Part shown: one piece after another, positions 1,959 through 63,512 of the stretch | Layout: each line of letters opens with the position of its first letter | Position numbering within the stretch: the stretch's first letter is position 1 | Source of the DNA: an uncultured Bacteroidota bacterium | GTDB lineage: Bacteria; Bacteroidota; Bacteroidia; 2-12-FULL-35-15 | Length of the DNA stretch: 64,000 nt | Assembly: GCA_903847205.1 (NCBI GenBank) | Contig: CAINDA010000028.1 | Span: forward strand, 4,603 to 68,602 | Direction: 5' to 3' | The notes under the pieces: generated by a model | Databases searched by the model: none | The model's input: only the letters and a program-made list of their open reading frames with translations | What the model was told of the DNA's origin: nothing | Program-made: the position numbers and the translations under genes

Positions 1959-3536
1959 TTGATCTCCATGACAACACTCAATCTTAATCCAATTCAAAAT
2001 CCGATTAATAAAAAAAAGCTTTATGAAATGGAGGAAGCAAGCTCACAGCAGATTGAACAGGTCTTTAAAACAGCCCGCAGGATGCAGGATATTGTAAAAA
2101 ATATGCCCGTTGAAAAACGCGTTGAAGAGATTTTGAAAATCAATGATTATGTTATTGCTCACCGCGAAGAAATAATTACACGTATTGTTGAAGAGACCGG
2201 TAAATCAAGGTTTGATGCATTGAGTTCCGAAATTTTTGAAGTTTGTGACCTAATAGATTATTTAAAAAAAGTTGCTCCGAAATTATTAAAAGATAAAAAG
2301 GTTCATACGCCCATTGTGCTGATGGGCAAAAAATCTAAAGTTGTATTCGAACCATTAGGAACCGTATTGATAATCACTCCCTGGAACTACCCTTTTTATC
2401 AAATGCTGCTGCCTTCTATTTTGGCATTTTTAGCTGGGAATACCGCAATAATAAAACCTTCCGAGCTTACGCCTCTTAAAGGGTTAATAGAAAGAGTGTT
2501 GACCGAAAGCGGTTTTTTGAAAGATGCGATTCAGGTTATTTACGGCGGCAGAGAGACGGGAAAACAGCTGATAGATGCCCAGCCGGATAAAATACATTTT
2601 ACCGGAAGTGTGCAGACAGGAAAAAAAATAATGGCTCAGGCCGCTCAATACCTTATTCCGGTTGACCTAGAGCTTGGGGGGAAAGATCCTGCCATTGTAT
2701 TTGAAGATGTAAATATTGAACGCACCGCAAATGGGCTCCTGTGGGGAAGTTTCACCAACAGCGGTCAGTCATGTACTTCAATAGAGAGAGTGTATGTTCA
2801 GGAAAGTATTTATGATGAGCTGATAAAAAAATTGTATTACAACATCAGTAAACTTAAGGTTTCTGATGAAAATAGAAATTACCTTGAGCCGGGAGAGTGT
2901 GATATGGGATGTATGACTTCTGAATCACAGATTCAGACAGTGGAATCGCATATTCTTGATGCCGTTGAAAAAGGGGCTAAAGTAATTATCGGAGGAAAAA
3001 GGGCGCCGGGCTCACTGCATTTCCCGCCTACTTTAATTGTGGACGTGAACCATACGATGAAAATTGTTATGGATGAAACATTCGGACCTGTGCTGCCCGT
3101 TATGAAATTTAAAACAGAAAAAGAGGCAGTTCAGCTGGCAAATGATTCGCCTTACGGGCTCAGTGCAAGTGTCTGGTCAAAAGACTTAGCCAGAGCGGAA
3201 CGCGTTGCCAAAAATTTAAAAACAGGCAATGTTTCTATTAACAACTGTATGTTGACGGAAGCCAATCCTGCCTTGCCTTTCGGCGGAATAAAAAACAGCG
3301 GGATAGGCCGTACTAAAGGCGAATGGGGCTTATTCAGTTTTGTTAATGTAAAAGCAATACTGATAGACAAACAGAGTTCAATCATTGAAGCGCAGTGGTA
3401 TCCGCATACAAAAACTAAATACGATTTATTAACCAGCCTTATTATTTCGCTTTTTTCACGCTCCAGAAATTTAATTAAATTTGCTGCAGTTGGGATGAAG
3501 CTTGATAAAATAGGTTCTAAAGAAAAAATTAAATAA
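1959..3536 (+). CDS. Aldehyde dehydrogenase family protein with an extended C-terminus
   Basis: ELGGKDPAIVFEDVN and FTNSGQSCTSIERVYV are ALDH catalytic Glu/Cys motifs. 525 aa with a hydrophobic C-terminal tail, as in fatty-aldehyde DH. Confidence 0.85.
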   Translation: MISMTTLNLNPIQNPINKKKLYEMEEASSQQIEQVFKTARRMQDIVKNMPVEKRVEEILKINDYVIAHREEIITRIVEETGKSRFDALSSEIFEVCDLIDYLKKVAPKLLKDKKVHTPIVLMGKKSKVVFEPLGTVLIITPWNYPFYQMLLPSILAFLAGNTAIIKPSELTPLKGLIERVLTESGFLKDAIQVIYGGRETGKQLIDAQPDKIHFTGSVQTGKKIMAQAAQYLIPVDLELGGKDPAIVFEDVNIERTANGLLWGSFTNSGQSCTSIERVYVQESIYDELIKKLYYNISKLKVSDENRNYLEPGECDMGCMTSESQIQTVESHILDAVEKGAKVIIGGKRAPGSLHFPPTLIVDVNHTMKIVMDETFGPVLPVMKFKTEKEAVQLANDSPYGLSASVWSKDLARAERVAKNLKTGNVSINNCMLTEANPALPFGGIKNSGIGRTKGEWGLFSFVNVKAILIDKQSSIIEAQWYPHTKTKYDLLTSLIISLFSRSRNLIKFAAVGMKLDKIGSKEKIK

Positions 3537-3537
3537 G

Positions 3538-4923
3538 ATGGCAGCAACGTATGATTTCATAATTATTGGTTCAGGAACTTCAGGCGGAGTGCTTGCACAC
3601 AACCTTCAAAAATCAGGAGCAAAGTGCCTTTTGATAGAGGCCGGTAAGTATTTCAAAAAAGAGACCTTTCCAAAAAATGAAGCAGATGCTTCTACCCAGC
3701 TGTATTGGGGCGGAGGATTGGAATTTAATGAATCAGCTACAATGGCATTTCTCCGCACAAGGGCGGTAGGAGGTACTTCTATTGTAAACCAGTGTTTGAT
3801 GAACCGCTTTGATGACATCGCTTTCAGGGATTGGAAAACACAATCAGAAGTTGGCTTTTTTAATGAAAAAGATATGTCGTCCTATTATGAAAAGGTTGAA
3901 AAGGCTTTGGTACTGCATACTTTTGATAAAAGTGAATTTAATAACAATGCAAAAAAATTTACGGCAGGATGCGATAAGCTGGGTTATAAATGGGATTACC
4001 TTCAAAGAGGCCAGTCCGACTGTGCTTTAGATAAAGGGAACGACTGCATCGGCTGTTTAGGCGGCTGCCGAAGGGATTCCAAGCAAAGTACTATGGTGGC
4101 GTTTATTCAGAAAGCTGAAAAAATCGGGCTTGAAATTTTAACCGAATTTACTGTTGACAGCGTTGAAAATAAAACTGATTCCGTTCTTGTAAAAGGAGAA
4201 AAAGCTGGGCAGAAACAAGTGCTTACAGCTAAAAAAATAATATTAGCCGGCGGTTCGTTCGGCAGTACCGGTATCCTGCTTCGTTCTGGTTTTAAAGATC
4301 GTCTTCCTGCATTAGGAAAATATTTTTCTTCACATCCGCAGTTTATGTCATTCGGTATTTATGATGAATACATTGATTCTCACAAAGGGGCTTTCCAATC
4401 GGTAGCTTCTAAAGACCCATCATTCAGACAGAAAGGGTTTAAGCTGGAGAATGTATTTGCTTCGCCGATATCAATAGGCATGTTATTCAATTCAGTGGGG
4501 AAACGCCACCAGGAGCTGATGAGGCAGTACCGCAATATGGCATGCATTGAAGTGGCTGTAAGAGATGAGCCTTCCGGAGAAATATTCCTGAATAAAAAAG
4601 GAAAAGTGGTGGTAAGAAAAGAGCTTACAACACGTGATAGGAGCAGAAGGGACCAAGGGTTAGAGGTAATTCAAAATATTTTTTCAAACAGCGGCGCCAA
4701 GGAAGTGGTGCATTCGCCTTATTATTTCGGACTTCACCTGATGGGCGGATGTGTTATCGGCTCCAACGCCCAAACCTCGGTTGTTGATCCCGATTTCAAA
4801 GTGCATGGAATGGATAATATTTATATTTCAGATTCGAGCATTTATCCGAATGCACCCGGTATTAACCCTTCATTAACGATTATGGCTCTTTCACAAAAAT
4901 TAAGTGAACAATTAACACGCTGA
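3538..4923 (+). CDS. GMC-family FAD-dependent oxidoreductase
   Basis: N-terminal DFIIIGSGTSGGVLA Rossmann FAD motif and a C-terminal GMC-like HxxG..D region. Start is 2 nt after the ALDH stop, suggesting translational coupling. Confidence 0.8.
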   Translation: MAATYDFIIIGSGTSGGVLAHNLQKSGAKCLLIEAGKYFKKETFPKNEADASTQLYWGGGLEFNESATMAFLRTRAVGGTSIVNQCLMNRFDDIAFRDWKTQSEVGFFNEKDMSSYYEKVEKALVLHTFDKSEFNNNAKKFTAGCDKLGYKWDYLQRGQSDCALDKGNDCIGCLGGCRRDSKQSTMVAFIQKAEKIGLEILTEFTVDSVENKTDSVLVKGEKAGQKQVLTAKKIILAGGSFGSTGILLRSGFKDRLPALGKYFSSHPQFMSFGIYDEYIDSHKGAFQSVASKDPSFRQKGFKLENVFASPISIGMLFNSVGKRHQELMRQYRNMACIEVAVRDEPSGEIFLNKKGKVVVRKELTTRDRSRRDQGLEVIQNIFSNSGAKEVVHSPYYFGLHLMGGCVIGSNAQTSVVDPDFKVHGMDNIYISDSSIYPNAPGINPSLTIMALSQKLSEQLTR

Positions 4924-4927
4924 TCAC

Positions 4928-5326
4928 ATGTCAAAAATATTAAGCAAATCAGCTCTTATAGCTGTTAACAGAATTGGAGATATTATTATACCTCATTCAA
5001 ATGAATTTCCTTCTTTCTCCGAAGCGGGAGGCATAGAACATATTGATGATATTATGTCATATACTCCGCCTGGTGATGTAAAAGACCTGAACATGGTACT
5101 GTCTATTTTGGCATACTGCCCAGGGTTTGTCCTTAACATACTTGTTAAACAAATGCTTTCCAGCAATAAAAAAACAGGCCCGCTTTCTCCTATTCTACGT
5201 CAGCTTGATATCGGTTTAAGAGGCATTGTATTTACCTGCTATTACTCTGGGAAAACCGGAAGCAGCTACAAGGGTAAAAATCCTTTAGATATTATTGGTT
5301 ACAAGATTACCAGACTTGAGGATTGA
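4928..5326 (+). CDS. Hypothetical small protein, probably an accessory subunit co-transcribed with the GMC oxidoreductase
   Basis: 132 aa. Starts 5 nt after the GMC stop. GMC oxidoreductases in Bacteroidota are commonly paired with a small subunit. Confidence 0.45.
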   Translation: MSKILSKSALIAVNRIGDIIIPHSNEFPSFSEAGGIEHIDDIMSYTPPGDVKDLNMVLSILAYCPGFVLNILVKQMLSSNKKTGPLSPILRQLDIGLRGIVFTCYYSGKTGSSYKGKNPLDIIGYKITRLED

Positions 5327-5424
5327 TATAACCCCGGTTATATTAAATCATTTAAACAATTTCTGCTAATTGTAATTTGACTTATAAAGCTTTTTTCAAT
5401 TTCACCAACGCTTCCTCTGCTTGA

Positions 5425-7842
5425 ATGAAACAAGCTTTAAAATTAGTATTCCTGCCCGCTTTCATTTTTTTATACAGTTATTCCTATTGTCAAAATACGG
5501 TTAAAGGAAAAGTTATTTCAAATACTACTTTAGAGCCTCTGGCTTTTGTAAATGTTCAATTCAATAACGATAATCGTTTAAGAGCATCAACAGATATTAA
5601 CGGTAATTTTGTTTTCAGCCTTCCTCAAAAAATTACCTCACTTACCTGCTGCTACATCGGTTACCAGCAGCTCACTATAACGCTGAATTCAGATATTAAA
5701 GAAAACAAAGAACTCTTGCTGAGAATGGTTCCTGTTTCATTTCAGTTAAATGAAGTTATTATTAAAGCCGGCGAAAACCCCGCTGACAGGATCATCCGGA
5801 AGGTAATTGAAAATAAAGATTTAAACAACCCGGAAAAAATTCCCTCCTTTAAATACAATTGTTACAATAAAACTATTTATGATTTTCTGCCGGCTGATAC
5901 CATTAGTGCAGGAATCGATTCTTCTAGAATAAATAAAAAATTAAAAGGCGGACATCTGCTGATTATGGAATCTGTTACCGAAAGAAAATTTACTGCACCA
6001 GATAACAGCGAAGAAAAGATAATAGGGACAAAGGTTTCGGGATTCAAGCGTCCTTCATTTGCCTCGCTGTCAACAGACTTTCAGCCTTTTTCTTTTTATA
6101 AGGATATTATTAAAATATTTGATATTAATTATCTAAACCCAATCAGCAATGGCAGTTTGAAAAGATACCAGTTCAGGCTGGAGGATACGCTCTTTCAAAA
6201 CAGCGATACAGTTTTTATTATTTCTTTCAAGCCCCTGCCGGGAAAAAATGCGGAGGCTTTAAAAGGAGTGCTTTACATTAATACAAATAAGTATGCGATT
6301 CAAAATGTAATTGCAGAGCCGTTTGAAAAAGGGTTTGTAGATATTAAAATACAGCAGCAGTATTCCTTTGTAGATAATAAACAATGGTTTCCGCAGCAGT
6401 TGAATTTCGAATTAAAAATGATGAAGTATCCTTCCAAAAAGATGGGAACAAAAGCCAACGGAAAAAGTTATATCCAAAACGTTGAGTTAGGGGCTGTCCT
6501 TAACAAAAAAGATTTCGCGCTTGAAGCTGTTTCAATGGATCCTGAAGCAAGCGGCAGAGATGAACTCTTTTGGAATAAATACCGCCCTGAAGCTTTAAGC
6601 AAAAGGGAAATAACTACCTACCAGGTGATAGACAGCTTCGGAAGAAAACATAATTTCGAGGGAATCCTTCATCTGATTGAAAAAATAAACCTGAATAGAA
6701 TCCCTGTTAAGTTTATTGATATTGATGTACCGCAGACACTGGTGTATAATAAATTTGAAGGCACAAGGATCGGCACTGGTATTTATACAAATGAAAAAGT
6801 ATTCAAACCTATTGTTGTTGGTGGTTTTTTCGGGTACGGACTTAAAGATTTACAATGGAAATACGGTGGTGAATTTGTTTGGACAATAAACAAAAATAAA
6901 GAGTTAAAAATAAAAGCGGCTTATAAAAATACCCTTACAGAAACAGGCGGTTCGGGACTTAATTTTTTTAACGGCGGTTTGCTTGACTTCAGGTCGGCAA
7001 TCGCTTCACAGATGGATAGAATACAACAGAACTCTGTTTCTATTGGTTTCCGGGCTTTGAGGTATGCCGAAATTGATCTTGCTCTGAATCATACCATCGT
7101 TACTCCCCAGTATAATTACGCCTTTCAGCTGAACGAGGCGCAGCAAATAAGCAATTATACCAGCAGCGATATTACAGTACACATGCGGTATGCCTACAAA
7201 GAAAAACTGATTACCTCTTTTAACCAAAGAATGAGTATGGGCTCAAACTATCCCGTAGTTTTTTTGGCTTACACTAAAGGAATTAGAAATTTTTACAACA
7301 GCGGATTTGATTTTAATAAAGCCGAAGCAAGGATTGAGAAATCTTTTTTTACAAAAAATATAGGAGAAACAACTTTCAGAATTGAAGGCGGGTTTATTGA
7401 CAAACCTTTGCCTTACGGGCTTTTGTTTACAGGCGAAGGAAGCCTCGACAACAGTTTTCCTTTCCCGCTTAAAAATTCTTTTCAAACGGCTGCCCCGTAT
7501 GAATTTTTATCCGATAAGTATTTCAATTTTCATTTTGCTCATGACTTTGGCGCTCTGCTTTTTAAACTAAATAAATTTAAACCTCATATTTCAATTCATC
7601 AAAGCATAGGCTGGGGAAGCTTATCAGATAAGGAGAGCCAGCAGCTTATTCAATTCAAAACCAAAGAAAAAGGTTTTTATGAAACCAGGCTTCGGGTTGA
7701 CAATATCATTAAGCTGAATTATTTAAACATTGCCTACATAGGTTTAGGCACAGGTATTTACTATAGATACGGCCCTTATTCATACCCAAATCCGGCAGAC
7801 AATTTAGTACTGAAGTTCAGTCTTAGTTTCTCAACAAAATAA
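5425..7842 (+). CDS. Carboxypeptidase-regulatory-like domain / DUF5686-type large outer-membrane-associated protein
   Basis: Signal peptide. N-terminal VKGKVIS..INGNFVF is a CarbopepD_reg-like fold. The ~800-aa size and Y/F-rich beta-like C-terminus are typical of Bacteroidota DUF5686 proteins. Confidence 0.55.
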   Translation: MKQALKLVFLPAFIFLYSYSYCQNTVKGKVISNTTLEPLAFVNVQFNNDNRLRASTDINGNFVFSLPQKITSLTCCYIGYQQLTITLNSDIKENKELLLRMVPVSFQLNEVIIKAGENPADRIIRKVIENKDLNNPEKIPSFKYNCYNKTIYDFLPADTISAGIDSSRINKKLKGGHLLIMESVTERKFTAPDNSEEKIIGTKVSGFKRPSFASLSTDFQPFSFYKDIIKIFDINYLNPISNGSLKRYQFRLEDTLFQNSDTVFIISFKPLPGKNAEALKGVLYINTNKYAIQNVIAEPFEKGFVDIKIQQQYSFVDNKQWFPQQLNFELKMMKYPSKKMGTKANGKSYIQNVELGAVLNKKDFALEAVSMDPEASGRDELFWNKYRPEALSKREITTYQVIDSFGRKHNFEGILHLIEKINLNRIPVKFIDIDVPQTLVYNKFEGTRIGTGIYTNEKVFKPIVVGGFFGYGLKDLQWKYGGEFVWTINKNKELKIKAAYKNTLTETGGSGLNFFNGGLLDFRSAIASQMDRIQQNSVSIGFRALRYAEIDLALNHTIVTPQYNYAFQLNEAQQISNYTSSDITVHMRYAYKEKLITSFNQRMSMGSNYPVVFLAYTKGIRNFYNSGFDFNKAEARIEKSFFTKNIGETTFRIEGGFIDKPLPYGLLFTGEGSLDNSFPFPLKNSFQTAAPYEFLSDKYFNFHFAHDFGALLFKLNKFKPHISIHQSIGWGSLSDKESQQLIQFKTKEKGFYETRLRVDNIIKLNYLNIAYIGLGTGIYYRYGPYSYPNPADNLVLKFSLSFSTK

Positions 7843-8171
7843 TAAGAACCCCACTTCCCTTTCTTATATGCCTTTTCGGGGGAGCTTGTAAAAAAAATAA
7901 TTATTTGTCGTTGATAAATTAATTCCTTTAAAAGCTGAGGTTATTTAATTAACTTTGTTATACAGAAAAAAATATTAGAAGAAAATCATAAAGTCAATGA
8001 CCTTTTTCACTTTCAGAAATTTTTAATTCAATCAATTTTCTTGTCAATACGGCACTTTGTTTGTGAAAAGCATCGACTTTTTTTCATAAATAAGTGGTTT
8101 GAAATTATTTATATTTCAAATAAATATTTCTTAATAGAATCAATTTTAAAATAAAAAAAATATCCGTTCAA

Positions 8172-9074
8172 ATGATGACAAAAAATTATATACTTCTCTC
8201 CATTTTACTTTGTTCATTTTTTTTAAAGCCTGCCAAGGCGCAATCAGATAAGGTGGCTGCAGACAGCAGTAAACTTAAAATAATGACGTGGAATCTGTAC
8301 ATGCGTCCGCGCCAGGTGTTCCACAACGGCCAGCTGAAAAGGGCACATGCTATTGTAACGCAGTTAAAAGATAAAGACTATGATCTGATTGTATTTCAGG
8401 AAACTTTTGACAGAAAGGCAAGAAACATTATCTGGAACGGACTCAAAGAAAAATTTCCTTACCAATCAGGAAGTCCTAAAAAGAAACGTTTATTCAAACT
8501 AAATACTGGTGTTTTTATGATCAGCAAACTCCCTTTAGAAGTGGTTGACAAAATATTTTTTTCAGTATGCGGCGGTTCTGATTGTTTTGCGGTGAAAGGC
8601 GCAGTTCTGATAGACGTTGTTAAAAATAATCATAAAGTTCAAATCATCGGCACCCATCTGCAGGCAGCTGAAGGCAGGCACATGACAGGGCAGAAAATCA
8701 GGCAGATTCAATACGAAGAAATTAAAAACAAATTGATGATTCCTCATGAAGAAAAAGGCGTTCCTCAGTTTTTCGTAGGCGACTTAAATACTTCGAAAGA
8801 TGATAAAGTAAGCTATTCGCAGCTGCTTACTGCTATGGATGTTGAAGACGGAGAAATAACGGGAGACAATCAATTTTCTTCAGCAGGAGTTCAGAACGAT
8901 TTGAAAGAGGCCGGTGATAAACCGCATTTGATAGATTATATTTTATGCAGGAAAAACGGATGTGTTGTTAATTTTAAACAGCGCTGCGTTAAAATTTTTC
9001 AGCAGACATGGGGTAAAAACCATAAAGATCTTTCTGATCACTACGCTGTATATGCAGAGATTGAGCTTAAATAA
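8172..9074 (+). CDS. Secreted endonuclease/exonuclease/phosphatase (EEP) family protein, sphingomyelinase-C-like
   Basis: Signal peptide MMTKNYILLSILLCSFFLKPAKAQ. MTWNLY..DLIVFQETFD and GDLNT are EEP catalytic motifs. Confidence 0.65.
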   Translation: MMTKNYILLSILLCSFFLKPAKAQSDKVAADSSKLKIMTWNLYMRPRQVFHNGQLKRAHAIVTQLKDKDYDLIVFQETFDRKARNIIWNGLKEKFPYQSGSPKKKRLFKLNTGVFMISKLPLEVVDKIFFSVCGGSDCFAVKGAVLIDVVKNNHKVQIIGTHLQAAEGRHMTGQKIRQIQYEEIKNKLMIPHEEKGVPQFFVGDLNTSKDDKVSYSQLLTAMDVEDGEITGDNQFSSAGVQNDLKEAGDKPHLIDYILCRKNGCVVNFKQRCVKIFQQTWGKNHKDLSDHYAVYAEIELK

Positions 9075-54968: not shown

Positions 54969-55060
54969 GATATATGATATTCTGTGCATCGTAGCTTTTA
55001 CAAAGATTCAGTTACCTATCTCCTGCTGTTTTCATTAAACTTCGCGCCTACCTGGGCATT
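54969..55060. repeat. Dispersed intergenic repeat family 1, copy b
   Basis: gatattctgtg..cttttacaaa..aacttcgcgcctacctggg. It overlaps the last codons of the downstream lipoprotein gene. Confidence 0.6.
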
Positions 55061-55416
55061 TTAATAATAGTATTTTTATCGGCTTTCCCTAGCTCATAAA
55101 ATATCGGCTTGTAGTTTTCCTTGGTTAAATAAATGCTCACCTTTTTATTGATACACTTTCTGACTACTGCAGGGATATGCAATTCAAAGTTTCCATTTTT
55201 ATCGGATGAAGTATTCACAACTATACTTGGCATACAATTGTAATTCTGGAGCGTAATTGTTACGTTTTCTAAAGGAATGCTGTCATGTTCTGATACCACC
55301 TGCCCCTTGTAAACTGCACTGCATCCCAAATTGAATAATAATACTATAGGCATAATTATTATCGAGTATAAGTATTTGGTTTTTTTCACCTTTTTATCAA
55401 TGACTTTATTATTCAA
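55048..55416 (-). CDS. Small lipoprotein with a carboxypeptidase-regulatory-like (CarbopepD_reg) fold
   Basis: Lipobox LFNLGC. GQVVSEHDSIPLENVTITLQNY..DKNGNFEL pattern. Paralogous N-terminus to the next gene. Confidence 0.5.
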   Translation of the reverse strand: MNNKVIDKKVKKTKYLYSIIIMPIVLLFNLGCSAVYKGQVVSEHDSIPLENVTITLQNYNCMPSIVVNTSSDKNGNFELHIPAVVRKCINKKVSIYLTKENYKPIFYELGKADKNTIIKMPR

Positions 55417-55432
55417 TATTTGCCGATTTTGA

Positions 55433-55486
55433 AAGTTCGTCAGTATGCCGGTTAAATTAAGCGCAGCTGTATGCTGCGCTTAAGGG
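55433..55486. repeat. Conserved leader motif with a 10-bp hairpin (copy 1), directly upstream of the lipoprotein gene
   Basis: aagttcgtcagtatgccggttaaattaagcgcagctgtatgctgcgcttaaggg. Stem taagcgcagc (55458-55467) pairs with gctgcgctta (55473-55482). Confidence 0.75.
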
Positions 55487-55521
55487 CAAATGAAAATAAT
55501 AATTAATAATCAATTATTAAA

Positions 55522-56010
55522 TCAACGCACTGCATCTGCAATTAATTTTTCGAAAACTCCGGTACTTTTTATTTCTATATTGGGGATAGCTGTGTTGTAG
55601 CATTTTATCTCCATCAAAGTTGCAATTACTGCAGTTTTTTCTCCCGCTTTTTTCACTCTGATATTCCATTCTCCGGTGATATATAAATACTTTTCCTTAT
55701 CAAGTGAATTAACCACAACAAAGGCGTTTGGATTAATTAAATGCCCGTCAACTTCGGTGGAAAATGTTAAAGAACTTTCTTTAGATACTATTAACCCGCT
55801 GGGTTCTTCAATAATTCTGATGGATATTCCTTTGGCGGCTAGTAAATCAATTACCTCTGACCAAACTTCATCTACCGTTTTGGCTGATTCAATATGAAAC
55901 GATGAATCTTGATATTTTCCGATAAGAGCCGTACGCTGTACATTACATGATGTGAAAAGTAATACTATCGGCAACATTATTACAGAGTAAATGTGTATTG
56001 TTTTTTTCAT
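55522..56010 (-). CDS. Hypothetical lipoprotein (162 aa), paralogous signal region to 55048..55416
   Basis: Lipobox LLFTSC. Shares the Y.YS.IM.PIVLLF N-terminus with the neighbouring gene. An A10 tract lies immediately 5' of the start codon. Confidence 0.5.
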   Translation of the reverse strand: MKKTIHIYSVIMLPIVLLFTSCNVQRTALIGKYQDSSFHIESAKTVDEVWSEVIDLLAAKGISIRIIEEPSGLIVSKESSLTFSTEVDGHLINPNAFVVVNSLDKEKYLYITGEWNIRVKKAGEKTAVIATLMEIKCYNTAIPNIEIKSTGVFEKLIADAVR

Positions 56011-56054
56011 TTTTTTTTTGGTTAATTGTTATTACTATTTTTTATGATTTTAAA

Positions 56055-56110
56055 AAGTTCGGCAGGATGCCGGTTAAAGAAAGCGCAGCGGGATGCTGCG
56101 CTTAACGGGG
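56055..56110. repeat. Conserved leader motif with a hairpin (copy 2)
   Basis: aagttcggcaggatgccggttaaagaaagcgcagcgggatgctgcgcttaacgggg. About 80% identical to copy 1, with the same stem. Confidence 0.75.
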
Positions 56111-56116
56111 GTGCAG

Positions 56117-56503
56117 TTAAGGATTTTCTTTAATAATAAGCAGAATTGCCTTTTTTAATTTAGGAATAAAATCAGTACAAATTTCAAAGACAATCTCAGA
56201 TTGAAGCTTTTCATAATGATGAGAAATAATATCACGCAGACGAATAATTTTCACCCACTCAATTTCTGTATGCTTATCCAGTATTTCAGGATACTTTTCT
56301 TCAATTTTCTTTAAATTTTCACCTATTGCCTGCAAACGCATCATAGTTGCATCAAATAAGGTAATACCATGCGAAGACGAATCATAATCACCAGGATTTT
56401 TAATATCTTTTGTACATATATTTATCCTATGAATATGCTCAAGAATATATTCTAATTTTGAAATAAGAACATCATTTTTAGGCATAGATAATTTCTTTTT
56501 CAA
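56117..56503 (-). CDS. hepT: HepT-like (DUF86) HEPN ribonuclease toxin
   Basis: 128 aa. C-terminal RDIISHHY (Rx4HxY HEPN motif). Overlaps the upstream nucleotidyltransferase gene by 26 nt. Confidence 0.75.
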   Translation of the reverse strand: MKKKLSMPKNDVLISKLEYILEHIHRINICTKDIKNPGDYDSSSHGITLFDATMMRLQAIGENLKKIEEKYPEILDKHTEIEWVKIIRLRDIISHHYEKLQSEIVFEICTDFIPKLKKAILLIIKENP

Positions 56504-56768
56504 TAATTGTAAGAAAACGTGTAGATAAACTGCGGCTTTTAGTTACCAAGTCTACTTTTTTGTTCAACAGCTTTTCTAAATACAAATAAGCACCCATCAA
56601 TGAATCAAAAGATGGTTTTTTAAATTGAATTAAAATATCCACATCACTTTCGGCGGTTTCATCACCTCTGGCATAAGAGCCAAATACTCCAATTTCTTCA
56701 ACTCCAAAAGCATTCGAAAGATAATTTTTTTGGGATCTGATTGATTCTATGACGCTTTGATTCTTCAT
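56478..56768 (-). CDS. mntA: MntA-like minimal nucleotidyltransferase antitoxin
   Basis: 96 aa. GSYARG...SDVDIL is the pol-beta NTase signature. Confidence 0.8.
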   Translation of the reverse strand: MKNQSVIESIRSQKNYLSNAFGVEEIGVFGSYARGDETAESDVDILIQFKKPSFDSLMGAYLYLEKLLNKKVDLVTKSRSLSTRFLTIIEKEIIYA

Positions 56769-56879: not shown

Positions 56880-57050
56880 GCGCGCTATATGTGATATTCT
56901 GTGTAGGATAAGCGCAGCTTACCTTTTACAAATGACACGAAGCAGCTGCCATCTTGCTTTCGCCGAACTTCGCGCCTACTGGGGCTATTCAATAAACTGT
57001 GTAAGTGTTATCTGCCCTCTTGCTTTCGCTGAACTTCGCGCCTAGTGGGA
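56880..57050. repeat. Dispersed intergenic repeat family 1, copy c, with an internal 45-nt tandem duplication
   Basis: gatattctgtgtaggataagcgcagc..cttttacaaatgacacgaag..cttgctttcgccgaacttcgcgcctactgggg, then cttgctttcgctgaacttcgcgcctagtggg. Confidence 0.65.
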
Positions 57051-57063
57051 TATTATAATCTTT

Positions 57064-57585
57064 TTAATTAAGCCTATCATACTTTCTTTTATATTCGTTG
57101 ATAACCTCTCCCTTTTTTGCTTCTAAAGTTCTTTCTAATTGTAATAACTTTACCAACTCTTCATCAGAAAAATTTGTGGATCTATGATCTGATCGATTTA
57201 TTCCAATTAATTCTAAAATTTCACTTTCATACTTAAGCTGTTTATAGCCATATCTTTTATTATATCTAAATATCATAATCACATATAGCTTGTCTTCGAT
57301 CGGTTTAATTGTTTTTTTTAACTCCAGTTTCCAATCATTTTTCAAAAAACTATTCATTTTATATTTTTTATCGACCAATTTCCTCGCACTATTTATTAGG
57401 TCAGGCAAGTCTTCGGGTGAACTGATTGTTTGCCCCCATTTATTTTTTATATTCATACCAGTTGCCCATGAACTAAGCATATAAACTCCTCCACCTATAA
57501 TGAGTATAAAAATTAAAATTAAAATCCCTTCCATACGAATTTGAGTTTTGTTTCTGATCGATTTACATCGGCGGCAATTTTTCAA
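57064..57585 (-). CDS. Hypothetical single-pass membrane protein. A 173-aa ORF; the likely start is Met17 at ~57537.
   Basis: A TM helix ILILIFILIIGGGVYMLSSW followed by a charged K/E-rich soluble domain. Very AT-rich. Overlaps or abuts the upstream HEPN-like gene. Confidence 0.4.
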   Translation of the reverse strand: MKNCRRCKSIRNKTQIRMEGILILIFILIIGGGVYMLSSWATGMNIKNKWGQTISSPEDLPDLINSARKLVDKKYKMNSFLKNDWKLELKKTIKPIEDKLYVIMIFRYNKRYGYKQLKYESEILELIGINRSDHRSTNFSDEELVKLLQLERTLEAKKGEVINEYKRKYDRLN

Positions 57586-58024
57586 AAAATTCCTTCACTA
57601 AATAGCGAAGGATTGGTGTAGTTATTGAAAGTATTTCTTTATCTCTCTTAGAATTTAAGCCCTTATTTCCATGAAATAGATTACATCTTACTTGATATAA
57701 ACACCACATTACAGTTGATAAATCTACAACTTCAATTTTTACTTGATTATTCTTTTTGGGGCGCTCGTCTTTTATTGATTTTAAAGATAAAATTTTATCA
57801 AACTCATTTTTATATTGTTTATAAACCCGATTAAAAATTTCTTTTGTATCCGAATCTTGAATAATCATTTTTATGGCGGTTCTTTCGGTTTCAGTTGTAA
57901 CTGCGACATAATAGCAATTAAAGGCTATCCAATAACAAATAAATTTATTTACATCTTCTTGTTCATTTTCGCCTTTTTTAATCCAATCATTCATTATTCC
58001 ACAAGTAATTTCTGCTGATGCCAT
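57563..58024 (-). CDS. Hypothetical protein with a HEPN-like Rx4HG motif (153 aa)
   Basis: QVRCNLFHGNKG at residues ~111-122 fits the HEPN Rx4-6H catalytic motif. The rest is predicted all-alpha. No closer family call is possible. Confidence 0.35.
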   Translation of the reverse strand: MASAEITCGIMNDWIKKGENEQEDVNKFICYWIAFNCYYVAVTTETERTAIKMIIQDSDTKEIFNRVYKQYKNEFDKILSLKSIKDERPKKNNQVKIEVVDLSTVMWCLYQVRCNLFHGNKGLNSKRDKEILSITTPILRYLVKEFFEKLPPM

Positions 58025-58072
58025 AGAATTTATTTTAGTCCGTTTTAATTAATTCTAAACAGTGTGATAATC

Positions 58073-58276
58073 TTAAAGGTTCGGTTCTTCCAAAAAATTT
58101 TTATCAAGGTTATTACATAAGCATAGAATGGGACTTCCATTTTCATTCAAGGAAGGGCCAAATTTAAAGTATTGCTGTCCTTCTTTGATTACAACATCTA
58201 TTATTTGATAAATATTATTATCATTAGAATTTCTACGCGTATATTTCTTTCCTTTTTTTTTCTTATTTTCTTTCAT
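58073..58276 (-). CDS. Small basic hypothetical protein (67 aa)
   Basis: Lys/Arg-rich N-terminus (MKENKKKKGKKYTRR). First gene downstream of a -7-like promoter box. ORF only. Confidence 0.3.
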   Translation of the reverse strand: MKENKKKKGKKYTRRNSNDNNIYQIIDVVIKEGQQYFKFGPSLNENGSPILCLCNNLDKNFLEEPNL

Positions 58277-58328
58277 TAGTTGAATAATTTATGATGTTGT
58301 ATATTTTATATAACTATATGTTTAAAGA

Positions 58329-58336
58329 CAAATATA
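58329..58336 (-). promoter_or_regulatory. Candidate -7 promoter box TAtaTTTG for the 67aa / HEPN-like / TM operon
   Basis: Reverse complement of caaatata matches the Bacteroidota TAnnTTTG consensus ~53 nt upstream of the start codon. Confidence 0.3.
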
Positions 58337-58343
58337 TCCAAAT

Positions 58344-58374
58344 AAAAAAGACGAAGCCCCCGGCTTCGTCTTTT
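58344..58374. terminator. Bidirectional rho-independent terminator ending the 58395..59048 gene
   Basis: A6 - gacgaagcc (58350-58358) - ccc - ggcttcgtc (58362-58370) - tttt. A 9-bp perfect stem. Confidence 0.65.
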
Positions 58375-59177: not shown

Positions 59178-59199
59178 TTTTTGGCAGTTTCTGCCAAAA
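59178..59199. promoter_or_regulatory. Operator-like palindrome ttttggcag-ttt-ctgccaaaa, with a partial upstream direct copy
   Basis: 9-bp arms (59179-59187 / 59191-59199). ttttttggcagcgagc precedes it at 59161-59176. Confidence 0.4.
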
Positions 59200-59226
59200 T
59201 AAATTCTGAACAAGGCTGTAAAAACA

Positions 59227-59406
59227 TTATCATAGCTATGATAATGTTTATCATAGGTATGATAGAAGTTATCATAGCTATGATAAACTCTTTCAAAGGT
59301 ATGATAGAAGTTATCATAGCTATGATAACGTTTATCAAAGGTATGATAGCTGTTATCATAGCTATGATAAACTCTTTCAAAGGTATGATAGACTTTATCA
59401 TAGCTT
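59227..59406. repeat. Phased tandem array of 8.5 x 21-bp palindromic units (42-bp higher-order period)
   Basis: The perfect 18-bp palindrome TTATCATAGCTATGATAA occurs at 59227, 59269, 59311, 59353 and 59395 (truncated). It alternates with TTTATCATAGGTATGATAG-like half-degenerate units at +21. Confidence 0.9.
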
Positions 59407-59425
59407 GTTTAAACATCCTGCAAGA

Positions 59426-59607
59426 CCTCACCCCCGGCCCCTCTCCTTGAAAAAGGAGAGGGGAGCCATAATTTTAAGAATTTGAATGGATACAGAATAG
59501 AACCCCTCTCCTTTTTCAAGGAGAGGGGCAGGGGTGAGGTGAATGAGTGTTTTGGTTTATGTGATAGAACCCCTCTCCTTTTTCAAGGAGAGGGGCAGGG
59601 GTGAGGT
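59426..59607. repeat. Three REP-like hairpin elements (copy 1 inverted relative to copies 2 and 3)
   Basis: cctcacccc.gcccctctcctt-GAAA-aaggagagggg has an 11-bp stem and a GNRA loop. Copy 1 is at 59426-59466; reverse-complement copies are at 59499-59541 and 59567-59607. Confidence 0.85.
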
Positions 59608-59694
59608 AAATTAATAATTGCTCGTCTTGTATAAAAGAATTAAATTGCAGTGCAAATCGAAAGAATTATAAATTAATTTCTAATCTATCACGAT

Positions 59695-61698: not shown

Positions 61699-63345
<1,647 letters not shown>

Positions 63346-63512
63346 TTATTTATTGATTAATTATTTGTTTGTTGTTTTTTGTTTAGTCCCCCTTGTGGGT
63401 TTTAGCTTGTGTGATAGAGAAAGGGGGAGCGCTGGCTCTGTGTGCTGCAGGGGGATGTTACCCGCTTCGCTTTTCTCCATTTCTCCAACTCTCTAATTCT
63501 CTATTTCCCTAA

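What the first reader, a model, noticed from the sequence alone, without database searches (positions are those of the whole stretch)
57064..58336. Uncharacterised three-gene operon (small basic protein, HEPN-like Rx4HG protein, membrane protein) in very AT-rich DNA next to HepT/MntA: a candidate abortive-infection / toxin module
A TAtaTTTG -7 box (58329-58336, minus strand) precedes three tightly packed minus-strand ORFs. The 67-aa protein is Lys/Arg-rich. The 153-aa protein has QVRCNLFHGNKG, which fits the HEPN Rx4-6H(G) RNase motif in an otherwise all-helical protein. The ~160-aa protein has a single TM helix and a charged tail, and it overlaps or abuts the HEPN-like gene. The segment is visibly more AT-rich than flanking housekeeping genes. 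It is flanked by dispersed repeats and lies 300 bp from a bona fide HepT/MntA pair. HEPN RNases paired with small membrane effectors or antitoxins are a recurring logic in defence and abortive-infection systems. I cannot place this combination in any named family.
Basis: inference. Interest (0 to 1): 0.65.

Follow-up and report, generated by a model that had tools for sequence, protein, structure and literature searches.

The report
Small HEPN-like gene with orphan neighbours
Only the middle gene of the proposed three-gene operon is conserved: it belongs to a large uncharacterised family with a nuclease-like motif that often sits among anti-phage genes, while its two neighbours are found in no other organism, so this is an ordinary stray defence or toxin gene rather than a new three-part system.

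Summary
The sequence features are real: three packed minus-strand ORFs (67, 153 and 156 aa) behind a terminator and a TATATTTG box. They lie in the most AT-rich stretch of the window, 295 bp from a genuine MntA/HepT pair.

The trio is not a conserved unit. The 67-aa and 156-aa proteins matched only themselves among 5.8 billion proteins. No relative of the 153-aa gene has similar neighbours. DNA homology to the closest relative (77% aa identity) covers the 153-aa gene alone.

The 153-aa protein is an outlying member of a large family: 1,839 clusters at 50% identity, across bacteria and archaea. The family overlaps Pfam MauJ (PF17419) and matches the C-terminal part of the PADLOC model for DzbB, a Dazbog defence protein.

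Its invariant Y-x2-R-C-N-L-F-H-G-x-K signature sits at the end of the third core helix, where HEPN RNases carry Rx4-6H, and an Ex3K lies at helix 2. However, Foldseek and profile-profile comparisons with known HEPN proteins gave nothing significant.

Family genes have highly variable, tightly linked partners. Roughly one in five or six immediate neighbours is a restriction-modification gene.

Best reading: a solitary HEPN-like effector or toxin gene in a small low-GC islet. Interest is modest.

The parts
58346..58374 (-). Intrinsic-terminator-like hairpin (13 bp stem, T-run) ending the upstream 217-aa gene. It marks the upstream edge of the unit.
   Evidence: sequence
58329..58336 (-). TATATTTG, a match to the Bacteroidota-type -7 promoter box, 52 nt before the first ATG.
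   Evidence: The motif is not enriched in the window (72 found, about 100 expected), so only its position is suggestive.
58073..58276 (-). 67-aa ORF with a Lys-rich N-terminus (pI 9.2). It is a lineage-specific orphan of unknown role.
   Evidence: Only a self hit among 5.8e9 proteins. No Pfam, PADLOC, NCBIfam or PHROG match. Weakest coding score of the three.
57563..58024 (-). 153-aa gene, the only conserved element. It belongs to the MauJ-like / DzbB-C-terminal-like family and is a putative HEPN-like nuclease.
57662..57697 (-). Codons for Y110-Q-V-R113-C-N115-L-F-H118-G119-N-K121. This is the invariant family signature (Rx4H) at the end of the helix spanning residues 102-118 and the start of the following loop.
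   Evidence: HEPN definition from PMC3710099
57944..57958 (-). Codons for E23-x3-K27 at the N-cap of helix 2. The family has D/E in 67% and K/R in 75% of members at these columns, matching the Ex3[KR] element of many HEPN families.
57064..57534 (-). 156-aa ORF (an alternative TTG start at 57585 gives 173 aa). It has one N-terminal hydrophobic helix and a charged helical remainder, and is a lineage-specific orphan.
56946..57049 (.). Two 38-nt direct repeats (56946-56983 and 57012-57049, 92% identical) between the unit and MntA. One metagenome contig ends here.
56478..56768 (-). MntA-type nucleotidyltransferase antitoxin with its own TAAATTTG box at 56783-56776. It is a separate neighbouring unit in the same low-GC islet.
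56117..56503 (-). HepT-type HEPN toxin carrying RDIISHHY (RX4HXY). It overlaps mntA by 26 nt.

Best explanation
The interval holds one conserved gene and two lineage-specific ORFs.

**The family (shown).**
- The 153-aa gene encodes an outlying member of a very large family of roughly 150-170-aa all-helical proteins, spread across bacteria and archaea.
- The family overlaps Pfam MauJ (PF17419).
- Its C-terminal half resembles the C-terminal domain of DzbB of the Dazbog anti-phage system.

**The architecture (shown at the level of motifs and helix order).** The family has the layout that defines HEPN domains.
- A helix 1-helix 2 hairpin with an [DE]x3[KR] element.
- A 60-residue insert.
- A third helix ending in an invariant Y-x2-R-[CN]-N-L-F-H-G-x-K (Rx4H).
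- A fourth helix.

**Mechanism (inferred).**
- The protein is a small metal-independent RNase of the HEPN type. It probably acts as a dimer with R113 and H118 as catalytic residues.
- It serves as a toxic effector of an addiction or abortive-infection-type module.
- It arrived by horizontal transfer, with or next to MntA/HepT, in a 2.2-kb low-GC islet between housekeeping genes.

**Family behaviour (shown).** The gene travels alone and plugs into very different operons. These include restriction-modification systems, a trypsin-like protease, a Cthe_2314 HEPN protein, an ABC-3C-like system and a CBASS neighbourhood.

**The neighbours here (unsupported).** The 67-aa and 156-aa ORFs are probably co-transcribed with it. 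One of them may restrain or localise it, but nothing supports this beyond adjacency.
For: **Family size and spread.**
- 1,839 representatives at E <= 1e-3 and 496 at E <= 1e-10.
- 218 loci in GTDB species genomes, from Bacteroidota, CPR, Firmicutes, Proteobacteria, Cyanobacteria and archaea.

**Named-family links.**
- MauJ: 19 of 100 members at E <= 0.01. P0004, a close relative in the family (33-36% identical to the 153-aa protein), scores 37.1 bits against the 28-bit cut-off. The family consensus scores 25.3 bits over the full model.
- DzbB model: 54 of 100 members, best E = 1.7e-6. The window protein scores 1.5e-5 on model positions 248-336 of 341.

**Motif and model.**
- Invariant F28, Y110, R113, N115, H118, G119 and K121.
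- C114 in 90% and N in the other 10%, which gives the canonical RN.
- D/E at position 23 in 67% and K/R at position 27 in 75%.
- AlphaFold model: pLDDT 95.1, pTM 0.90. Helices span 4-20, 24-42, (47-56, 58-70, 72-81, hairpin 83-96), 102-118 and 126-149.

**Weak independent links to HEPN.**
- HEPN_Apea in 4 of 100 members (best 0.0042) and RiboL-PSP in 1.
- CARF_HEPN or Csx1/Csm6 PADLOC models in 3 members (best 6.4e-5).
- HepT (7bxo_F, 5yep_B) and Csm6 (5yjc_B) at ranks 2, 17 and 18 of the Foldseek list.

**Genomic context.**
- Upstream same-strand neighbour within 20 nt in 34 of 75 loci.
- Neighbours include N6_Mtase, Eco57I, MmeI, ResIII, HsdR, DUF1156, DUF4391, AAA_21/15, T5orf172-ResIII, DUF4365 and FRG.
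- Individual loci: CBASS next door, a Cthe_2314 HEPN protein, and DpnII R-M plus SMEK/DUF2326 on a plasmid.

**The islet.** Lowest GC in the window.
Against: **No significant similarity to any solved HEPN structure.**
- Best Foldseek E = 2.1, TM about 0.3.
- No PDB sequence or profile hit.

**Profile comparisons were negative.**
- hhalign against a 37-sequence HepT alignment (36 relatives plus the window protein) gave 0.2% probability.
- hhalign against a Cthe_2314 HEPN protein gave 0.05%.

**Departures from the usual HEPN pattern.**
- The residue after R is Cys in 90% of members, not the usual N/D/H.
- No catalytic activity is known for any member.

**Named relatives do not clearly point to a toxin.**
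- MauJ sits in a methylamine-utilisation operon.
- Deletion of dzbB could not be transformed. That pattern is more like an antitoxin than a toxin.

**Local weaknesses.**
- No conserved immunity partner exists at this locus.
- Many family loci lie among housekeeping genes.
- The enrichment for R-M neighbours was not tested against a formal background.
Confidence: 0.55

Rival explanations
1. The 153-aa protein is a non-catalytic regulator or neutraliser, not a toxin. Like DzbB in Dazbog, it would bind and restrain another protein, or sense a signal. The conserved R/N/H/K patch would then be a ligand- or nucleic-acid-binding site.
For: - The strongest named-model link is to DzbB (54 of 100 members).
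- The dzbB deletion could not be transformed, 'possibly due to toxicity', alongside known antitoxin deletions.
- Partners of the family are large enzymes (methylases, helicase-nucleases, a protease) that could themselves be the effectors.
- HEPN domains that only bind substrates are known (PMC3710099).
Against: - Per PMC3710099, the non-catalytic HEPN domains fused to nucleotidyltransferases and part of the MtlR family have lost the Rx4-6H motif entirely or partly. Here R and H are invariant in 100 of 100 members, together with Y, N and K.
- Only the C-terminal 90 positions of the DzbB model are matched.
- No DUF262 partner occurs in any sampled locus.
Confidence: 0.2
2. One reading: the three ORFs form one dedicated abortive-infection or toxin module, with a basic small protein, a HEPN toxin and a membrane effector or antitoxin working together.
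For: - Tight packing (48-nt and 28-nt gaps), a single upstream promoter-like box and terminator.
- All three ORFs have coding-like codon usage.
- Shared low GC.
- Antitoxins and immunity proteins can evolve fast enough to look like orphans.
Against: - Both flanking proteins matched only themselves among 5.8 billion proteins.
- They have no counterpart beside 84 family loci.
- The 77%-identical relative has a different downstream gene, and homology ends at the gene borders.
- Neighbours of relatives share almost no homology with each other.
- Only 6 of 74 tight neighbours have a membrane helix.
Confidence: 0.07
3. The family has a housekeeping or accessory role unrelated to conflict, as implied by the name MauJ (a gene in methylamine dehydrogenase operons). 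Its presence here would be incidental.
For: - The Pfam family that captures the relatives is MauJ.
- Many second neighbours are ordinary metabolic genes.
- In the window the flanks are groES/groEL, glycosyltransferases and secreted proteins.
Against: - Patchy distribution across all phyla, with hypervariable tightly linked partners.
- Repeated insertion inside R-M operons and beside CBASS, ABC-3C, HEPN and REase-like genes.
- Low-GC islet shared with a TA pair.
- No function of MauJ could be found in the searchable literature.
Confidence: 0.1
4. The gene is a stranded, functionless remnant of a mobile cassette. The two flanking ORFs would be chance open frames in AT-rich DNA.
For: - Orphan status of both flanks.
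- Weak coding score of the 67-aa ORF.
- Contigs from several metagenomes break at fixed points around the gene.
Against: - The 153-aa ORF is full length and keeps every invariant family residue.
- The 156-aa ORF has a coding score equal to that of HepT and MntA. In DNA this AT-rich, long open frames are unlikely by chance, because stop codons are AT-rich.
Confidence: 0.08

Closest known systems
Pfam PF17419 'MauJ' (methylamine utilization protein MauJ; function unknown)
   Same: - Whole-domain profile match. Relative P0004 scores 37.1 bits (cut-off 28) over model positions 4-115 of 116.
- The family consensus scores 25.3 bits over positions 7-114.
- 19-35 of 100 family members match.
- Same size class and all-helical.
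   Different: - The window protein itself scores only 17.4 bits, below the cut-off.
- Most of the family (65-81 of 100) is not captured by the Pfam model.
- The context here and in most relatives is defence or R-M, not a mau operon.
- No function is attached to the name.
DzbB, second protein of the Dazbog anti-phage system (DzbA carries DUF262; abortive infection triggered by a phage cytosine methylase)
   Same: - Residues 45-148, including the Rx4H signature, match positions 248-336 of the 341-position PADLOC DzbB model (E = 1.5e-5).
- 54 of 100 family members match it.
- Both occur in defence contexts.
   Different: - The DzbB model (341 positions) is more than twice as long, and only its C-terminal part is matched.
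- No DUF262 (DGQQR) protein occurs in the window or in any of the 89 loci examined.
- The role of DzbB is unknown, and its deletion behaved like loss of an antitoxin.
HEPN superfamily, especially the small stand-alone or R-M-embedded families (ApeA, RiboL-PSP, MAE_18760, pEK499_p136 and others; Anantharaman et al. 2013)
   Same: [quoted passage not shown]
- An insert between helices 2 and 3.
- Ex3K at helix 2.
- Frequent embedding in R-M operons and defence islands.
- Weak profile hits to HEPN_Apea, RiboL-PSP and CARF-HEPN models.
   Different: - No significant structure or profile-profile match.
- Cys rather than N/D/H follows the Arg in 90% of members, with an invariant Asn one position later.
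- Additional invariant Y (R-3), G and K (H+1, H+3).
Type VII toxin-antitoxin pair HepT/MntA (the neighbouring genes 56117-56768)
   Same: - A small helical protein with Rx4H about 40 residues from the C-terminus.
- Located in the same low-GC islet.
   Different: - The 153-aa gene has no nucleotidyltransferase partner.
- It has no Tyr at H+2 (RX4HXY), which to my knowledge is the residue MntA modifies.
- hhalign probability against the HepT family is 0.2%.
- It is a separate transcription unit with its own promoter-like box.

Membership tests
HEPN superfamily | Conserved Rx4-6H motif | tested here: met
   R113-x4-H118 is invariant in 100 of 100 divergent family representatives.
HEPN superfamily | Motif located at the end of core helix 3 and the start of the loop to helix 4, within a four-helix up-down core with an insert between helices 2 and 3 | tested here: met
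   The AlphaFold model (pLDDT 95.1) has H1 4-20, H2 24-42, an insert at 43-101, H3 102-118 and H4 126-149. The definition comes from PMC3710099. This was met at the level of helix order only, because model coordinates could not be superposed.
HEPN superfamily | Polar residue (N/D/H) immediately after the conserved Arg | tested here: not met
   Position 114 is Cys in 90% of members, including the window protein, and Asn in 10%. An invariant Asn sits at R+2 instead. The source describes this feature as typical, not obligatory.
HEPN superfamily | Second conserved acidic residue in helix 2, typically Ex3[KR] | tested here: met
   The window protein has E23-x3-K27 at the N-cap of helix 2. The family has D/E in 67% and K/R in 75% of members at these columns. 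The element is conserved but not invariant.
HEPN superfamily | Significant structure or profile similarity to an established HEPN family | tested here: inconclusive
HEPN superfamily | Metal-independent RNase activity that depends on R and H | not testable with these tools
   Needs biochemistry.
Pfam PF17419 MauJ | Score at or above the gathering cut-off (28 bits) | tested here: not met
   The window protein scores 17.4 bits, E = 0.0087. Relative P0004 (33-36% identical) scores 37.1 bits and the family consensus 25.3 bits. The window protein is therefore an outlier of the same superfamily, not a member by Pfam's own rule.
Dazbog defence system | DzbA (DUF262) gene adjacent to DzbB | tested here: not met
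   No DUF262 among the Pfam hits to window neighbours. No DGQQR-motif protein in any of the 89 loci.
Dazbog defence system | Full-length DzbB (PADLOC model of 341 positions) | tested here: not met
   Only model positions 248-336 are matched, by residues 45-148.
Conserved multi-gene toxin-antitoxin or abortive-infection module (the proposed trio) | Partner genes co-occur with the core gene in other genomes | tested here: not met
   The 67-aa and 156-aa proteins have only self hits. No similar ORF was found in 84 family loci. Neighbours of relatives are mutually unrelated. Homology to L009 is confined to 58059-57573.
Type VII TA HepT/MntA (neighbouring pair, for context) | HepT-like HEPN toxin with RX4HXY, plus an overlapping upstream MNT nucleotidyltransferase gene | tested here: met
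   PF01934 at E = 2.3e-16 and PF01909 at E = 7.6e-15. RDIISHHY is present and the genes overlap by 26 nt. NCBIfam equivalog scores fall below their cut-offs.

The most novel reading that the evidence does not exclude
The MauJ-like / DzbB-C-terminal domain may be an unrecognised clade of minimal HEPN ribonucleases. It would serve as a shared plug-in effector in three settings:
- in Dazbog;
- inside many restriction-modification operons;
- as stand-alone genes with fast-evolving, lineage-specific restrainers.

In this Bacteroidota genome the restrainer or localiser would be one of the two orphan proteins, possibly the membrane-anchored one.
Probability: 0.3. Interest if true: 0.55.

Novelty: new member of a known kind. 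Interest (0 to 1): 0.33.

Why it matters
- **A testable idea for two unknowns.** If the family is a HEPN-type RNase, that gives a concrete hypothesis for the effector domain of Dazbog, whose mechanism is unknown in the literature I could search. It would also explain a widespread 'hypothetical' gene found inside R-M operons.
- **For this locus the practical result is negative.** There is no new three-component system here.
- **What is actually there.** A small low-GC islet carries a HepT/MntA pair and one stray effector-like gene with two unverifiable orphan ORFs.

Tried and rejected
**Library and structure searches**
1. Direct searches of the three proteins in Pfam, NCBIfam, PADLOC and PHROGs. 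The 67-aa and 156-aa proteins gave nothing.
2. PDB by sequence and by family profile. Only chance hits such as grancalcin.
3. Foldseek of the high-confidence model against PDB and BFVD. Nothing at E < 1.

**Profile-profile comparisons**
5. hhalign of the family against a HepT alignment built from 36 metagenome relatives plus the window protein, and against a Cthe_2314 HEPN protein. No relation detected; both targets were shallow.
6. The window HepT against PDB, to collect HEPN sequences. Only a coiled-coil artefact.

**Other collections and literature**
7. tblastn of the family consensus against plasmids and phages. No match, probably because of low-complexity masking.
8. tblastn of the real protein. 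One weak plasmid hit and no phage hit.
9. Source names for cluster members. Only 'hypothetical protein'.
10. Literature on MauJ or PF17419. Nothing usable.

**The flanking ORFs**
11. A possible shared small partner among the 67-aa ORF and the 88-aa ORFs next to relatives. No similarity.
12. My guess that the 258-aa upstream protein in L001 is Panacea/SocA-like. No Pfam hit, so dropped.
13. Single-sequence AlphaFold of the 156-aa protein. Unreliable (best model 71.9, the others 37-48) and no fold match.
14. The related contig L002, to look for selection on the orphan ORFs. It is 100% identical across the region, so uninformative.

**Motif look-alikes considered and rejected by eye** (inference only)
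15. Fic/Doc (HxFx[DE]GNGR): the spacing does not match.
16. PLD HKD motif: the spacing and the fold class differ.
Full report
**1. What is in the sequence**

The minus strand of 57064-58336 carries three ORFs.
- 67 aa, 58276-58073.
- 153 aa, 58024-57563.
- A third ORF that reads 173 aa from TTG 57585 (23-nt overlap) or 156 aa from ATG 57534 (28-nt gap). Public gene calls use the 156-aa form.

Upstream, a 13-bp terminator-like hairpin (58374-58346) closes the preceding 217-aa gene. TATATTTG follows at 58336-58329, 52 nt before the first ATG. TANNTTTG is not over-represented in the window (72 found, about 100 expected). Its position is therefore suggestive, but the match itself is not.

The interval has 27.6% GC. 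That is essentially the lowest value for any stretch of that length in the window (mean 36.8%, sd 3.1%). Together with the adjacent MntA/HepT genes it forms the lowest-GC 2.2 kb.

MntA (PF01909, E = 7.6e-15) and HepT (PF01934, E = 2.3e-16, RDIISHHY) are real. They overlap by 26 nt and start 295 bp downstream of the third ORF. All three ORFs score as coding only in their own frame, with the 67-aa ORF weakest.

- Downstream there is a pair of 38-nt direct repeats at 56946-57049.
- The upstream arrays lie more than 800 bp away, beyond another gene.

**2. The trio is not a conserved unit**

The 156-aa and 67-aa proteins matched only themselves among 5.8 billion clustered proteins. That search needs shared 5-residue words, so very remote relatives could be missed. 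However, phmmer at E <= 10 also found no similar ORF in the loci that carry relatives of the 153-aa gene.

The closest relative of the 153-aa protein from another organism is 77% identical (L009).
- It shares DNA homology only over window 58059-57573, which is the gene itself.
- It is followed by an unrelated 88-aa ORF.

More distant relatives have different neighbours every time. All-against-all BLAST of 150-odd neighbours gave only a few small clusters. Membrane partners are rare, at 6 of 74 tightly linked neighbours.

**3. The 153-aa protein belongs to a large family**

A word-based search found only five proteins. A full HMMER search with their alignment found far more.
- 1,839 representatives (50% identity clusters) at E <= 1e-3.
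- 496 representatives at E <= 1e-10.
- Almost all are 145-175 aa stand-alone proteins.

A scan of one genome per species found 218 loci. They come from Bacteroidota, candidate phyla radiation bacteria, Firmicutes, Proteobacteria, Cyanobacteria, Planctomycetes and several archaeal groups.

In an alignment of 100 representatives that are 20-42% identical to the window protein, conservation is as follows.
- Invariant: F28, Y110, R113, N115, H118, G119 and K121.
- Conserved in 90% or more: W14, F35, N36, C114, L116, F117 and D128.

**4. Named relatives**

*Pfam MauJ (PF17419).*
- It matches 19 of 100 members at E <= 0.01 and 35 at E <= 5.
- Relative P0004 passes the curated cut-off (37.1 against 28 bits) over the whole model.
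- The family consensus reaches 25.3 bits.
- The window protein itself reaches 17.4 bits.

*The PADLOC model for DzbB of the Dazbog system.*
- It matches 54 of 100 members (best 1.7e-6).
- It matches the window protein at 1.5e-5, but only over model positions 248-336 of 341.
- In Dazbog, DzbA carries DUF262. The system aborts infection when a phage cytosine methylase is present.
- A dzbB deletion could not be transformed.
- I found no description of what DzbB does.
- No DUF262-type protein occurs in the window or in any locus examined, so this is not a Dazbog system.

**5. Is it HEPN?**

The AlphaFold model built on the 100-sequence alignment is confident (pLDDT 95.1, pTM 0.90). Its helices span 4-20, 24-42, 47-56, 58-70, 72-81 and, after a hairpin at 83-96, 102-118 and 126-149.

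Anantharaman et al. 2013 define the HEPN domain as follows (PMC3710099).
- A four-helix up-down bundle with frequent inserts between helices 2 and 3.
- A polar residue after R.
- Often an Ex3[KR] element in helix 2.

Three of these features are present here.
- R113-x4-H118 closes the helix spanning 102-118.
- Residues 43-101 form the insert.
- E23-x3-K27 caps helix 2. The family has D/E in 67% and K/R in 75% of members at these columns.

One feature deviates. The residue after R is Cys in 90% of members and Asn in the remaining 10%, with an invariant Asn one position later.

Independent but weak links to HEPN are these.
- HEPN_Apea in 4 members and RiboL-PSP in 1.
- Three CARF-HEPN or Csm6 PADLOC models, best 6.4e-5.
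- Two HepT structures and one Csm6 structure among the top 18 Foldseek hits.

Against this, several tests failed.
- None of those Foldseek hits is significant (E >= 2, TM about 0.3).
- PDB sequence searches are empty.
- hhalign against a HepT alignment built here gives 0.2%.
- hhalign against a Cthe_2314 HEPN protein gives 0.05%.

I therefore rate 'HEPN-like nuclease' as probable (about 0.6-0.7) but not demonstrated.

**6. Context of the family**

Linkage is tight in many loci.
- In 34 of 75 loci a same-strand gene ends within 20 nt upstream.
- In 23 of 77 loci a same-strand gene starts within 20 nt downstream.

These partners range from 61 to 1,156 aa and are mostly unrelated to each other.
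- Of 58 upstream partners: 5 carry N6_Mtase, 3 Eco57I, 3 MmeI, 3 ResIII. Single cases carry HsdR, SWI2/SNF2, DUF4391, DUF1156 and HsdS domains. Two each carry AAA_21, AAA_15 and SMC_N.
- Of 43 downstream partners: 3 are T5orf172-ResIII helicases. Others carry N6_Mtase, N6_N4_Mtase, DUF1156, FRG or DUF4365.
- Second neighbours again lead with DNA methylases, and include AbiEii and KwaB alongside ordinary metabolic genes.

Individual loci show the same picture.
- CBASS genes next door (L001).
- A Cthe_2314-type HEPN protein 2 nt downstream (L010).
- A trypsin-like protease-like partner (L011 and L012).
- An Eco57I methylase - family gene - helicase/nuclease arrangement in L021 and L035. L031 shares the downstream helicase, but its contig ends before the upstream gene.
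- A plasmid locus with DpnII R-M and SMEK/DUF2326 genes (L090).

No phage record matched.

So roughly one immediate neighbour in five or six is an R-M component. That is high, but I did not test it against a formal background.

**7. Best reading and rivals**

The 153-aa gene is most likely a self-contained, horizontally mobile, HEPN-like effector or toxin gene. It landed beside MntA/HepT in a small low-GC islet between housekeeping genes (groES/groEL, glycosyltransferases, secreted proteins).

By analogy with HEPN RNases it would cleave RNA through R113 and H118, probably as a dimer, and cause growth arrest. These steps are inferred.

The 67-aa and 156-aa ORFs are probably co-transcribed. Either could restrain it, but only adjacency supports that.

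The rivals are:
- a non-catalytic, DzbB-like regulator (0.2);
- a non-conflict accessory role, as the MauJ name implies (0.1);
- a stranded remnant (0.08);

**8. Novelty and score**

The protein is a new, outlying member of a family that is already catalogued but functionally blank.
- The HEPN-like reading of that family, and its link to the DzbB C-terminus, may be unrecognised in the literature I could search. It is a family-level hypothesis rather than a property of this locus.
- The locus itself is ordinary.
- Interest: 0.33.

Noticed in passing
window 58148 and 56913-58357; loci L003-L006: Three independent metagenome assemblies give short contigs that all start at window 58148, inside the 67-aa ORF. 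A fourth contig spans exactly 58357-56913, from the terminator hairpin to the 38-nt repeats. Fixed break points suggest strain variants or repeats at the edges of the unit.
   Followed up: partly
window 59199-59408: A tandem array of at least seven 21-bp units rich in the palindrome ATCATAGCTATGAT. It gives long open frames on both strands (95 and 89 aa) that score poorly as coding. Only chance-level Rfam microRNA hits.
   Followed up: partly
window 59432-59611: Three copies of a GC-rich hairpin element (CCCCTCTCCTT...AAGGAGAGGGG, 26-48 nt, 85-98% identical). They lie between the tandem array and the 576-aa Por-secretion-tail protein gene.
   Followed up: no
window 55048-56108: Two adjacent lipoprotein-like ORFs (122 and 162 aa) have similar signal-peptide regions. 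Each is followed by an 85%-identical 60-nt element that contains a hairpin (55427-55486 and 56049-56108). This looks like a local duplication.
   Followed up: no
window 62000-63352 versus L002: A public contig is 100% identical to the window from 49563 to about 62000. It then differs at 349 positions within the groEL gene. This is either a recombination boundary or a chimeric metagenome assembly at a conserved gene.
   Followed up: partly
window 58159-58166 (minus strand): A second TAAATTTG box lies inside the 67-aa ORF, 135 nt upstream of the 153-aa start codon. It could be an internal promoter that lets the 153-aa gene be expressed without the 67-aa ORF.
   Followed up: no
window 57591-57612 (minus strand): A terminator-like hairpin (9-bp stem followed by a T-run) lies inside the last codons of the 153-aa gene, just before the 156-aa ORF. 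It may be a chance match, or it may be an attenuator between the two.
   Followed up: no
L021, L035 (and L031): about 3400-8300 in each locus: A recurring arrangement in gut Bacteroidaceae and Dialister genomes: Eco57I-type methylase, then the family gene, then a roughly 968-aa T5orf172 + ResIII helicase. A gut Clostridia locus (L031) shares the downstream helicase, but its contig ends before the upstream gene. This is the only clearly conserved context found for the family.
   Followed up: partly
L011 2513-3328 and L012 13-762: In two Bacteroidia genomes the family gene is preceded, 2-11 nt upstream, by a 250-272-aa protein with trypsin-like protease hallmarks (TASHV ... GLSGCGLW). The two proteins are 71% identical to each other and have no Pfam hit.
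   Followed up: partly
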